Positions 25,086 to 63,475 of a DNA stretch of 64,000 nt are shown in pieces. The DNA lies in NCBI RefSeq assembly GCF_964204865.1, contig NC_135254.1:10478001-10542000 (forward strand), given 5' to 3'. Under the pieces are notes generated by a model. It was not told the DNA's origin and did no database searches. It was given only the letters and a program-made list of their open reading frames with translations. The stretch is from Styela clava. Its lineage: Eukaryota. The position numbers and the translations under genes are program-made. Numbering within the stretch: position 1 is the first letter of the stretch; the number at the start of each line of letters is the position of its first letter.

Positions 25086-27223
25086 TTTCGTAACTTCGTC
25101 GGATTAAGAACGATAAAACGTGATATAAATCGATATACGTATTTCCATCCATTTTGTATTTGTATTTTCCAAGTGCAAAACTCAACTTAAAAAATTATAT
25201 CATATATATATATATATCAAGAAGGAGCACATACATAAGATAAGTTTACGAATTTGGGAGCTACACTTCCATTTTCAGTAATGAAAATAAACCCTGAAAC
25301 CAACCCAAAAAGTATGTATTCTACTATGATGCTGTGGTATCATGTTTCCATATTTATGCTGTTTCAACAATATATAATAATTTTTTTTATATTCTTTGTA
25401 AAATTTCCCGAATACTATAAACTCATCTCCAACTTCAATTTTGTAATGTGGCCGTGCTGTGAACATTCATCTTGCTAAAAAAATGTTTCAGCACAGTAAA
25501 ACAACTACATTTCAAAAAAGCCTCAATACTCAAGATATTACTTGTCATGAGTTCAAAAATACATAGTACAAGGCCTATGCAGGAATTAATACTTGCTTCT
25601 GATTACGTCTCGGTAAAAAATATTTTAACCAAAGAGCATCAACCCTGAATTAGTGGATTCTAAAATATTTGACACAATCAACGTAACAAACTATATAAAA
25701 TATAGCGAAACTAGTTTTGGGGATATAATTTCAGTAATTTGTAATTTTCTATTAGAGAAAAGTTTGGAAATGAGAAACATATTCTAAATTTCAGTGATTT
25801 GGTTTTATGAACAAGTGTTTACTAGAGATCAACATTTCTGCGTTTTTATATTTGTAAAAATGGTGGAGAAAATTTCATTTTCCAAAGTAAATATCATAGA
25901 AGTAGATGGATTCCTCAGTTCATCGGATCTCCTCCAAAGGCATGTGCTTAGCTATTAGGCAAATTGTAAGAATGATTTTAGATTCAGTTATATATTCGAA
26001 GTGTGAGCTCCCAAATAATGTGAAGAATATTGGAAACTTGTTTTCGTTAATGTCAAATGTCATTGCCTCGATTGACTGTTCCTTTCGAGGAAAATAGGCT
26101 TTTTCCCCCAGTTCTAAGTGTCTAGCAAATTTGTGGGGATATTAAAAGTATAAACAACAAAGTCATTATGTTTAAATTACGTGGAATTTATATGCATTTG
26201 AACGTCTGGGATTCGCTATTCGAGGTTCTCGACAGTCACATAGAATCACATTTATACAATCAATCGTTCGTTAGTGACATACAATCGATAGAAATTTTCA
26301 AAATGCTCAAATAGCGTGCATGCAAGTGATTGAGAGTTGTGATTTATATTATCAAATATTTATTTATTCTAGGTGAAACGTGTTTATTGAATATTGATTT
26401 CAACATCATATTGATTCATATAACAATCGTAATCATATTATAAAACGTTATGGATATACCTGTTCAGTACCATAGACTCTTTGATCATTTTCTGAAAGTT
26501 TTAGACTGATTCAGGTAAAGCAAGGTGATATAGTTATAAGGAAATGGCATTTACTTGACTACGGTATTATATTATGAGCGAAAGGATAATTATTGCTTAT
26601 TGGATCACAAAGCATGTTTGTTTAAGTGTCGTTTGCAGTGACAAAATGTTGAGTATAAACACTGAAAATAAGGCAACATCCATTTTAATACTACTCGCTC
26701 TTCTAAGCGACCATTTGCAGACTTTCAGATAAAGCAAATGAATGAAGCCTCTTGTGAAGCAAATTAATGTCCCCAAGGCATCAAAAAGTAGCCAATACAT
26801 TGCGATTTTCTCATAAATATTTTCGAGTTTTACGAAGTGATTGGTAATGCAGGACATCATTCACAATTCTTAGTAGCCGCTAGGCAGAATGACGGCAATA
26901 TCAGCACAATATTCTAATTTAAAAATTATAAAAAAGTTAGATGTTTTGATGAACAATGGGCAAAGGTTTTTAGTATAATTTTAGTTGCTTATATAACTGA
27001 GGCAGCATTAAGGATAATAGATAAATATCAGTTGGTAACAAAGTTGGAATTTTGATAAAACAAAATACATCGACTTAACATGATGACAAACAGTTGTAAG
27101 TAAACATAATATTGACATCTAATTGATTTTTTGAGCAAAATTCAATTACCACATGGAAAGTATTTTTGAACTTATGCAATGTGTTTTAAATTCTAATTTG
27201 ATTAGAGCACTTTAGTTTATAAA

Positions 27224-30200
27224 ATGCCATTCTCAAACGAAGGAGATCGAGTAGGACATGATGAAATAAAAACAAGTAGAATGGGAATGTCTGAAGATGA
27301 TTTTCGAAATGCAGCTAACGAAATGTCTGAATATATCATCAGTTATTACAAAAGTCTGAATGGGAGACAAGCCATACCATCAGTTACTCCTGGTAAATAT
27401 TTCTTAAATGTAAAAGCGTGATATGGAATACATATGTGGGGTTCTACGGTTCAAGGTTCACAGGAAAATAGTTTTAATGGTTCGGATACTTAAATATATA
27501 ATGAAAATGCTTATTGATTAGTTCGAAACATAGAAGACTTTCATAATCATATGTCAAAGGTCCTCTTTGAGTAATGAGTAGCATACTCAGTACGTAGAAA
27601 AAAGCTCGATTTCTCAGTTATTTAACAGAATACATCAAACAAATTTCACAACATTTTTACAGGATTTTTAACCGATCTGCTACCCAAAGATCCACCAAAC
27701 CGGCCCGAAAACTGGGAGAAAATATTCGTTGATCTTGAAAAAGTTGTTATGAAGGGAATGACTCACTGGCAATCTTCAAACTTTTTTGCGTACTTTCCTA
27801 CCGGAACTAGTTATCCCTCGATTCTTGCAGATATGCTCTCGAATGCTGTATCAAGCGTTGACTTAAGCTGGGTATAAACCTTCAATAACAAGTTAATTTA
27901 GCAACAATATGAACTAAATTTCTATAAAATATTCTGTGTTTTACTATTTCGTTTTAACTCAGGAACAAAAATGGGCGCTCCTGAAGTATTCGTACCAAGA
28001 TGACGCACAACCTGAACACTGACCTGGTTAACATACTATGTTCAGGTTGTGCGCCATCTTGGTACAGATGCTTCGGAAGCACCCAAAAATGTACCTTTAC
28101 CTTTAAAACGAAGAGTTATATATTATACTGAAGTGAATCAGTATTCGCAAATCCTTTTTCCATTTGTTTGAAAAAAAATTTGATATGCTTCCAGGCATCG
28201 TCTCCCATAAGTACGGAAATGGAGGCTACAGTCCTGGGTTGGTTAGGGCAAGCAATCGGATTACCAGATTGTTTTATACATTCAAAAGTCGGACCTGGAT
28301 ACGGAGTGATTCAAGGTCGGTAAAATGTTTTAAATATTTCAAGGAGTCCTACGAACTGAGATGATTGAAAATATTTCTCAATGATAATTTTTATTATTCT
28401 ATATCCAGGTTCTGCAAGCGAGGCAACACTTATGACGTTGCTAGCAGCAAGATCTAAAACGCTGTCGCTATTGAGTAACAAATATCCAGAAAAATCGCAA
28501 TACGAATTATTGTCAAAGTTGGTTGCTTACTCCTCCAAATATAGTCATTCATCGGTAGAAAGGGCATGTACGATTTTGTGATTTTAAATAATTTACTGAA
28601 AATCGTAATTCACTGACTCATGAGAGCTTGTATGTCAAGATACTCAACATAAACGATTACTATTGCATTCAAAATTACTGTAAAATCTATTCTGCGTCAT
28701 TTACATTAGTTTTATACTTGCTAGTTAAATGAAACAAATTAAGTACATTTTTTAAATATCCTTTTTTTTCTGGATTAAAATGCCTTTCGCACTAAAGCTA
28801 GAATCTTATTAGGCCGATTTCTTATATTCTCAAATAAGCCAACGATTCCTTAATGTGCATATGAAGAAGGATAGTCCAGGTTTTCACATAAAAATTTTAG
28901 AAGCGATTTATTTATACAAAACTAATATTTATAAATGTAACATTTGAACAAATAACAATTATTGAATAGAATAATAAATATTCACTATATTTTGCACACA
29001 ACCATCAAACGATCATGGTTAGTCGAAAGAATATATATGAGAAAGATATGTAATACATTAATGTTACGCCGCAGATAGAAATAAGGCGAATTCGAGTGAT
29101 ATGACTGATTGTGCAACTTACAACAACGTTTATCTCGAATATCTCGCGAGGCAAATCATATCTGGATTATAGTGCCAAATTGGTTACGAATTGACTATTT
29201 TCAGGTCTAATGGGAATGGTACAATTGCACAAATTGCCTGTGGATGAAAATATATCAGTGACTAAGAAAATTTTGGAAGAAGCAATAAAAATAGATATGG
29301 AGAATGGAAAAATTCCTTTTTACGTGAGATTTGTTCCAACATCCGGCAACAACAAAAAATTACAAAAATCCCAATTTTACATAACTCTTGTCTATGCAGG
29401 TTTGTGCAACATTGGGAACCACGTCATGCGTTTCATTTGATGACGTAAGTGGGATCGGAGAAGTTTGTGAGTGTTAAACCTGTTGATTCAATTTTTATTT
29501 ATTGTGAATTAGGTCGGGAAGAACTCTAGCGAGTGAGTCTAGCACAGTGTACTCTGGTGGTTAGCACACAGGATGGATTTGTCATAGGCTAAGCAGACTT
29601 AAAGCTCGAAATCTATAGGAACTTCCGACATACAATTTTAAACTATCTGTCATACTTGCTTACATTAAAGTTATATTTTTCTCCTATCGTTTCTGATATC
29701 TTCGTTTCTAACTTACATTGCAGGTCGCAATAATATACTCATGAAGTCAAGTACCAAATCGGCAATTATAACAGCCCGATTTATGATAGTTATGTATGTA
29801 TGTTACAGCAGTTATTATATTAAACTATACATCTCTCATCGAATATGTCCTCTTTTATAGGCGCGGAAAATGATATATGGCTTCATGTGGACGCTGCTTA
29901 TGCCGGATGTAGTTTCGTGTGTCAGGAATTCCGTCATCATATGAAAGGAATAGAGGTCGGTCTCGTGATTTCATTCCTCCTCCAGTTTATTTCCATGTTT
30001 TCATATTTAGGAGCTTCAGTACGTTAGATACGCAGAACGTCGATGTGAAAATAATATGAATGAACATACGTTCAATGACTTAATGTTTATACATTTCCAT
30101 CAACTATTGTGGCGCAACCAGGCTAGTTACTATATAACTTCTGTAACTTTTTCATCTCCCAATATAGATTATACTTTATTCAAAAATTGGATACGACAGC

Positions 30201-63202: not shown

Positions 63203-63475
63203 ATGAGAATTGAATCAATATTTTTGTTTATTCTTTTTCAATACCCAAGGCATCTCAACAGAGCAGAGCAAATCTTTTTTTAATTTTAATTTTTTTATTT
63301 AATTTAATCAAATTTAATTAATTTTAAGCCAAATTTAGAAATTATTCATTTAAATTATTCAAAGCAACTGCTCAATTTGTCGAGATCAAATTGTCTAGAA
63401 ACAGCTGCCATGACATTTATGGGGCTTAATTTTGTGGCGAAGAATAATTCCTTTTTAAGCGTCAAATGCGATCAA
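63203..63475 (+). pseudogene. Orphan signal-peptide exon and intron remnant of a second VWA gene copy
   Basis: 63203-63266 reads MRIESIFLFILFQYPRHLNRA, homologous to 38812-38875, but lacks the GT donor. ~63346-63475 matches VWA intron 2 (39561-39690), so the MIDAS exon is deleted. Confidence 0.75.

What the first reader, a model, noticed from the sequence alone, without database searches (positions are those of the whole stretch)
25621..63475. Repeated three-gene cassette: divergent decarboxylase, lectin receptor and VWA protein
Seen: the order decarboxylase -> <- lectin ... VWA -> occurs twice, plus an older middle copy in which only the decarboxylase 3' flank and LecC survive. The lectin is kept in every round, the decarboxylase twice intact, and the VWA gene decays. 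Established: DOPA decarboxylase supplies catecholamines for invertebrate melanisation and wound responses. Inference: either a functionally linked recognition plus catechol-chemistry defence locus, or passive hitch-hiking on lectin birth-and-death evolution.
Basis: partly seen in the sequence, partly recalled or inferred. Interest (0 to 1): 0.7.

Follow-up and report, generated by a model that had tools for sequence, protein, structure and literature searches.

The report
Passenger enzyme in sea-squirt receptor array
In a sea squirt, a gene for a predicted amine-making enzyme occurs twice at the edge of a long tandem array of more than 20 lectin-type surface-receptor genes, and it was likely copied once as a bystander rather than as part of a repeated three-gene defence unit.

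Summary
The genes are real; the three-gene cassette is not. In this Styela clava region the repeating element is a ~335-kb array with 24 lectin-domain (CTLD) receptor heads and 14 VWA copies. The decarboxylase occurs only twice, at the array's left edge. The block specific to the two "units" is ~8 kb: the decarboxylase plus the lectin's 3' end. The first lectin has a premature stop. The "older middle copy" is an open 402-aa receptor, and its "decarboxylase 3' flank" recurs beside class-A receptors across the array. Unit 2 has no VWA coding sequence, and 10 of 14 array VWA copies are open. Both decarboxylases are intact (pN/pS 0.29). They are Styela-specific AADC paralogs with catalytic residues kept but a remodelled substrate pocket, so DOPA use is unproven. 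Contig depth (1.4-1.9x) favours a true duplication over two alleles but does not settle it. Best reading: one passenger duplication inside a birth-and-death receptor cluster (0.75). Better lead: the array mixes ITIM/ITSM-tailed and ITAM-like-tailed receptors with similar heads, like paired immune receptors.

The parts
27224..31516 (+). DC1: AADC-family PLP decarboxylase, 11 exons, 509 aa, intact (identical to RefSeq XP_077968985.1)
   Evidence: splice joints in RNA-type contigs
52435..56622 (+). DC2: second copy, 11 exons, 509 aa, intact; 31 of 1530 nt and 14 residues differ from DC1 (contains RefSeq XP_039269716.2)
25621..33500 (+). Block specific to the two units (decarboxylase plus 3' end of the lectin gene); partner 50843 to about 58600; right edge approximate
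50843..58600 (+). Second copy of the duplicated block, joined on its left to the upstream region of the middle receptor; right edge approximate
32683..36377 (-). Receptor 1 (class A: signal peptide, CTLD, TSP1, Thr-rich stalk, TM, tyrosine tail) with a premature stop at 34227-34225
39324..42949 (+). VWA gene core, five exons, MIDAS DxSxS present; 8-nt insertion after the exon-2 acceptor shifts the frame; first exon not found
45812..48948 (-). Middle receptor (class A), open 402-aa model (RefSeq models only a 164-aa CTLD here)
57789..61615 (-). Receptor 2 (class A), open 401-aa model
31599..32325 (-). Region read as 'decarboxylase 3' flank'; recurs downstream of class-A receptor tails along the array, so likely the receptor's 3' end
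62673..63477 (+). Non-coding relic: 68-79% match to the lectin-VWA spacer and 84% match to 167 bp of VWA intron 1; no VWA coding sequence
3293..13926 (+). More distant family member (RefSeq LOC120344887: CTLD, TSP1-like, TM, tyrosine-rich tail) upstream of DC1, so DC1 lies inside the wider receptor cluster

Best explanation
An intact AADC-family decarboxylase gene sits at the left edge of a ~335-kb tandem array of CTLD receptor and VWA genes in Styela clava, and its second copy likely arose once as a passenger, when an ~8-kb block holding the enzyme and the neighbouring receptor's 3' half was copied about 25 kb into the array. Shown: gene models, copy numbers, block limits, splicing, tree position and residue changes. 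Inferred: the array turns over by unequal crossing-over, exon shuffling and conversion; both enzyme copies stay under purifying selection for their own function. The enzyme is predicted to be an active PLP decarboxylase (K303, D271, H192, Y332 and R347 kept, human numbering) with a retooled pocket (G102D, F103L, N300S, F309T, L353F, R355C), most likely making an amine other than, or less strictly than, dopamine. The canonical-type AADC lies on another chromosome.
For: In 424 kb examined: 24 N-terminal CTLD exon pairs, 15 class-A and 8 class-B TM exons, 14 VWA copies, 2 decarboxylases. Genome-wide, all 16 tail-A matches and all 11 tail-B matches lie in this array. 12 of 12 500-bp bins over 25.5-31.5 kb have exactly one other copy; 23 of 23 bins over 33.5-45.0 kb match best outside the window. 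The CTLD of receptor 1 groups with copies at 103 and 117 kb (100/99), not with receptor 2, although their tail exons are identical. 0 of 3 other AADC loci has a CTLD hit in 30, 30 and 60 kb; the window control gave 8 hits. DC1 vs DC2: 13 synonymous and 14 non-synonymous codons, pN/pS 0.29, binomial p 0.002. Contig depth over the block is 1.39, 1.92 and 1.60 times the unique flank in three runs of one sample.
Against: The decarboxylase lies inside the wider cluster, with related receptors at 3.3-13.9 kb and at 370-374 kb, so its linkage to the cluster may be old. Both copies stayed intact while a neighbouring receptor and VWA copy broke. Coding divergence (2.0%) is close to the 1.72% heterozygosity reported for the species (PMC7540406, passages), and the tool warns that contig depth is no copy number. 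The pN/pS test cannot tell paralogs from alleles. No co-expression or cross-species synteny data were available.
Confidence: 0.75

Rival explanations
1. Functionally linked defence locus: the retooled decarboxylase is kept in the receptor cluster because it is co-expressed in haemocytes and supplies an amine for defence chemistry.
For: It is embedded between related receptor genes. Both copies are intact. Enzyme, receptor and VWA transcripts are all spliced in run X6. The canonical-type AADC is elsewhere, which leaves this paralog free to specialise.
Against: 2 of 24 receptor heads have the enzyme beside them. The enzyme and receptor are tail-to-tail, so they share no promoter region. The three genes were not copied together. 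Other divergent AADC paralogs have no CTLD nearby. Presence in the same bulk run is not co-expression.
Confidence: 0.12
2. Assembly artefact: DC1 and DC2 are two alleles placed in tandem.
For: Coding divergence of 2.0% is near the reported heterozygosity. An older annotation has one model that is a mosaic: of 14 DC1/DC2 differences it has 8 DC1, 5 DC2 and 1 other residue. RNA-type contigs also look mixed: 7 of 10 listed exonic differences from DC1 match DC2 and 3 match neither. One run gives a depth ratio of only 1.39.
Against: All three depth ratios exceed 1; in X2 the copy-specific contigs are at 70 and 60 against 62 for the unique flank. A 6.5-kb contig runs unbroken from unique DNA through the block's left edge with 0-5 differences. 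The window has no N gap. The two units stop being best matches at 33.5 kb. Caveat: a hemizygous flank would also give a ratio near 2, and no contig across the 50842/50843 junction was seen in the rows shown.
Confidence: 0.1
3. The decarboxylases are decaying or catalytically impaired copies whose pocket changes reflect lost function.
For: Changes fall at positions where human variants impair activity (G102S, F309L, L353P; PMC8003434, passages). Broken AADC copies exist at another locus.
Against: Open frames, canonical splicing, pN/pS 0.29. All listed pocket changes are shared by DC1, DC2 and the older model. F103L and L353F swap two residues that the review says contact each other.
Confidence: 0.03

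Closest known systems
Aromatic L-amino acid (DOPA) decarboxylase, human/pig (PDB 8OR9, 8ORA, 1JS3); S. clava canonical-type AADC P0122
   Same: PF00282, 47% identity and TM-score 0.92 to 8ORA; K303, D271, H192, Y332, R347, T82, G354 kept; exon boundaries line up with the C14 gene.
   Different: G102D, F103L, N300S, F309T, L333A, W349M, Q350R, L353F, R355C; Asp at 102 only in the three S. clava rows of this gene among 31 rows. Substrate untested.
Botryllus schlosseri FF/FcoR receptor clusters (PMC12582321; passages read)
   Same: Ascidian tandem clusters of type I membrane proteins with ITIM-type and other tyrosine motifs and copy-number variation.
   Different: FF/FcoR are immunoglobulin-superfamily, and FF carry no tyrosine motifs. 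Here the ectodomains are CTLD plus TSP1, and both classes carry their own tails. No allorecognition link is shown.
Vertebrate paired receptors such as Ly49 and KIR (named in PMC12582321 passages; other detail recalled)
   Same: Clustered genes with similar ligand-binding heads, different signalling tails and birth-and-death turnover.
   Different: Type I rather than type II CTLD. Class A has a non-canonical YxxI-x6-YxxM and no charged TM residue in the models read. No functional data.
Ascidian CD94-like proteins BsCD94-1 / CiCD94-1 (PMC5465252; passages)
   Same: Membrane CTLD proteins; the Ciona one is described as lacking carbohydrate binding and expressed in phenoloxidase cells.
   Different: Type II topology, not this modular CTLD-TSP1 type I family.

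Membership tests
Repeated functional gene cassette | The three genes are copied together as one unit | tested here: not met
   Shared block ends at about 33.5 kb inside the receptor gene; unit 2 has no VWA coding sequence
Repeated functional gene cassette | Enzyme co-occurs with the receptor across copies and paralogs | tested here: not met
   2 of 24 receptor heads; 0 of 3 other AADC loci with a CTLD in the DNA fetched
Repeated functional gene cassette | Conserved synteny in other species; co-expression | not testable with these tools
   No relative genomes held; only bulk-run contigs
Group II PLP decarboxylase, AADC family | PF00282 domain, AADC fold, placement among AADCs | tested here: met
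   (S. clava clade 100/99 within a tunicate clade 100/100). No HDC sequence was in the tree; phmmer gave 507 bits to human AADC and 430 to HDC
Group II PLP decarboxylase, AADC family | PLP lysine, Asp271, His192, loop Tyr332, Arg347 | tested here: met
DOPA decarboxylase proper | Canonical catechol-pocket and PLP-phosphate residues (Gly102, Phe103, Asn300, Phe309, Leu353) | tested here: not met
   All five changed; roles from PMC8003434 passages
DOPA decarboxylase proper | Activity on L-DOPA | not testable with these tools
   Needs an enzyme assay
Aldehyde synthase (DHPAAS/AAS type) | His192 to Asn or Tyr332 to Phe switch (rule recalled; only search listings seen) | tested here: not met
   H192 and Y332 kept
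Ca-dependent sugar-binding C-type lectin | EPN/QPD and WND motifs in the N-terminal CTLD (motifs recalled) | tested here: not met
   0 of 22 open heads; EPS 16, EPH 3, QPS 2, EPT 1; WYD 19. The internal second CTLD type often has EPN and was not counted
Paired immune receptors | Clustered genes with similar ectodomains | tested here: met
   Head identity A-B 82%, A-A 84%, B-B 84%; the class label needs 3 changes on the tree, though starred branches force only 1
Paired immune receptors | Inhibitory motifs in one class, activating motifs in the other | tested here: inconclusive
   ITIM in 5 of 5 and ITSM in 4 of 5 class-B tails; YxxI-x6-YxxM in 12 of 13 class-A tails; canonical ITAM in 0 of 18. 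Shuffles reaching the observed ITIM/ITSM count: 27, 2, 20, 188 of 2000; ITAM-like 61 and 30 of 2000 for a pattern chosen after looking
Paired immune receptors | Opposing signalling in the same cells | not testable with these tools
   Needs phosphatase/kinase recruitment and single-cell data
Botryllus FF/FcoR | Immunoglobulin-superfamily ectodomain | tested here: not met
   Pfam on 14 annotated members lists CTLD and TSP1 and no Ig family

The most novel reading that the evidence does not exclude
The array is a convergent paired-receptor complex in a solitary ascidian: class-A receptors (ITAM-like tails) activate, class-B receptors (ITIM/ITSM tails) inhibit, their ligand loops diversify, the interleaved VWA protein is a partner, and the embedded retooled decarboxylase is a co-expressed effector making a defence amine. 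The paired-receptor part alone is about 0.35 likely; the whole, including the enzyme link, about 0.08.
Probability: 0.08. Interest if true: 0.75.

Novelty: new member of a known kind. Interest (0 to 1): 0.33.

Why it matters
As posed, the finding is ordinary: a bystander gene copied once at the edge of a fast-turning receptor array, made to look like a cassette by the 64-kb window. Two by-products are worth follow-up. The array gives a defined set of about 15 ITAM-like-tailed and 8 ITIM/ITSM-tailed CTLD receptors in a solitary ascidian, a testable parallel to the Ig-type Botryllus receptors and vertebrate NK receptors. The enzyme is an expressed AADC paralog with a remodelled pocket, a cheap candidate for unusual amine chemistry in ascidians.

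Tried and rejected
No RNA holder was listed on record; runs X6 and X8 are guessed RNA and were used only for their GT-AG joints. Hi-C run X15 gave depth under 1 on unique DNA and run X5 was patchy, so neither informs copy number. A search for a signal-peptide first exon of VWA gave candidates in 2 of 14 copies, neither convincing; a hydrophobic stretch near 37.4 kb is frame-broken in all 11 copies viewed. Four other PF00282 loci fetched look like glutamate-decarboxylase-type genes on weak matches, not AADC or HDC (label is my reading of motifs). The AlphaFold model (pLDDT 85.7) and fold search only confirmed the AADC fold. The search of 1.84 billion representatives with a class-B receptor gave 1974 hits; I looked up names for 10 proteins (all among the 150 listed): 9 were S. 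clava and 1 was unnamed, so absence from other tunicates is not shown. Paper searches found no description of this locus or family: (open-access library only; no supplements were read, and the S. clava genome paper's supplements might list these genes). Earlier-findings look-ups by place, words and sequence were blank. No formal positive-selection test was run; pN/pS of 1.17 and 1.06 in the CTLD loop regions against 0.29-0.36 elsewhere is exploratory and confounded by conversion.
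Full report
Setting. The window is G000:C5:10478001-10542000 of a 377-Mb genome. Protein hits name the organism as the ascidian Styela clava. I fetched neighbouring DNA from -40 kb to +384 kb in window coordinates.

Genes in the window. Two decarboxylase genes (27224-31516 and 52435-56622) have 11 GT-AG exons and 509 open codons each. They differ at 31 of 1530 nt (13 synonymous, 14 non-synonymous codons; pN/pS 0.29; p 0.002), and both match RefSeq models. Three minus-strand genes encode type I receptors: signal peptide, CTLD, TSP1, Thr-rich stalk, TM, tyrosine tail. 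Receptor 1 has a stop at 34227-34225, and RefSeq models the same 167-aa truncation. Receptor 2 is open (401 aa). The middle one is open too (402 aa), although RefSeq models only its CTLD. One VWA core (39324-42949) has an 8-nt insertion after the exon-2 acceptor. Unit 2 has no VWA coding sequence, only a non-coding relic. In guessed-RNA runs of two studies, 7 of the 10 decarboxylase introns appear among the joints listed for both runs (46 further joints not shown). Receptor joints appear mainly in X6 and VWA joints in X6 and X8. Paralogs cannot be told apart in these contigs.

What actually repeats. In 424 kb there are 24 N-terminal CTLD exon pairs, 15 class-A and 8 class-B TM exons, 14 VWA copies and 2 decarboxylases. 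The array runs from 32.7 to about 367 kb. All genome-wide matches to both tail types fall inside it, as do all 14 VWA exon matches at 88% identity or more. Each VWA copy lies head-to-head with a receptor. Ten of 14 are open over the five exons tested, with pN/pS 0.31 and lower diversity in exons (0.02-0.05) than introns (0.05-0.14) among the 10 copies aligned. No first exon was found, so whether any VWA copy is complete remains open. Binning shows exactly one other copy for 12 of 12 bins over 25.5-31.5 kb and 10 copies for the 31.5-32.5 kb 'flank'. For 23 of 23 bins over 33.5-45.0 kb the best match lies outside the window. Receptor 1's head groups with copies at 103 and 117 kb, not with receptor 2. 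So the two 'units' share only the enzyme and the receptor's 3' end. The middle gene is an ordinary array member, not a cassette that lost its enzyme.

Real duplication or alleles. In three runs of one sample, summed contig depth over the block is 1.39, 1.92 and 1.60 times the unique flank (medians). In X2 the copy-specific contigs (70, 60) match the flank (62). A 6.5-kb contig passes from unique DNA through the block's left edge with 0-5 differences. Against this: the tool warns that such depth is no copy number; a hemizygous flank would mimic the ratio; the second junction was not seen; coding divergence is near the 1.72% heterozygosity reported (PMC7540406, passages); and an older single model and the RNA contigs are DC1/DC2 mosaics. 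I put the artefact at about 0.1. A copy-number polymorphism with conversion is also possible.

The enzyme. It folds as an AADC (pLDDT 85.7; TM 0.92 to human AADC). In a 31-row tree the S. clava genes form one clade (100/99), with the canonical-type C14 gene branching first and the C5 copies nearer a divergent C9 gene (94/91); no HDC was included. K303, D271, H192, Y332 and R347 are kept. G102D, F103L, N300S, F309T, L333A, W349M, Q350R, L353F and R355C are changed. A review of human AADC places Ile101/Phe103 at the catechol ring, says G102S raises Km about 11-fold, and says Leu353 contacts Phe103 (PMC8003434, passages). The F103L/L353F swap therefore looks like remodelling rather than decay (inference). 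Insect-style melanisation by dopamine is recalled knowledge. For ascidians a review names tunichromes or phenol-containing peptides as likely phenoloxidase substrates (PMC5465252, passages), and the routes to dehydro-amines described in PMC3039461 (passages) are oxidative, not PLP-AADC. None of three other AADC loci has a CTLD in the DNA fetched.

The receptors. Annotated members carry one to four CTLDs plus TSP1 modules. Class-B tails hold ITIM (5 of 5) and ITSM (4 of 5) matches. Class-A tails hold YxxI-x6-YxxM (12 of 13) but no canonical ITAM (0 of 18 tails) (tails up to 284 kb). Shuffle controls support the class-B motifs in 3 of 4 tails and only weakly the class-A pattern. Heads are 82% identical between classes and 84% within. 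None of 22 open heads has EPN/QPD or WND, and variation concentrates in the loop regions. This works like a paired-receptor cluster but is not FF/FcoR, which are Ig-type (PMC12582321, passages). Function is untested. Unchecked earlier notes report other receptor arrays in this genome, which makes such clusters look common here.

Verdict. Observation partly confirmed; cassette not supported; passenger duplication 0.75. New member of a known kind. Interest 0.33, carried mainly by the paired-tail receptor array and the retooled enzyme.

Noticed in passing
G000:C5:10510683-10845251 (window 32.7 kb to 367 kb): Two receptor classes with similar CTLD heads but ITIM/ITSM versus ITAM-like tails; six adjacent A-B pairs, and the last class-B gene is inverted.
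   Followed up: partly
window 3293-13926 (+) and 369.9-374.3 kb: More distant CTLD-TM-tyrosine-tail receptors (LOC120344887, LOC120344945) flank the array; further relatives lie on other chromosomes.
   Followed up: partly
window 10877-12638: GIY-YIG ORF (11335-12189, minus) between 453-bp inverted repeats at 99.6% identity, inside an intron of LOC120344887; likely a recent mobile element.
   Followed up: no
window 27972-28085 and 53183-53296: High-copy ~110-bp inverted-repeat element in decarboxylase intron 2, also at about 15.0, 18.9 and 19.3 kb.
   Followed up: no
window 49623-50118: Four near-perfect copies of a 124-bp unit upstream of the middle receptor.
   Followed up: no
window 37400-37650 and 10 other array copies: Conserved stretch with a signal-peptide-like hydrophobic run after an (ATGA)n repeat, frame-broken in all 11 copies viewed; possibly the VWA first exon.
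   Followed up: partly
L014 (C9) and L015-L017 (C14 6.94-6.97 Mb): Further divergent AADC paralogs: an annotated C9 gene with H302Q and G102A, and two or three broken, partly inverted copies on C14.
   Followed up: partly
window-coordinate 141.7-157.1 kb: One receptor is annotated with four CTLDs (1456 aa) through internal triplication of a ~5.1-kb module at 96-98% identity.
   Followed up: no
window-coordinate 160.2-160.4 kb: A VWA copy has lost almost all of intron 1 and carries two stops.
   Followed up: no
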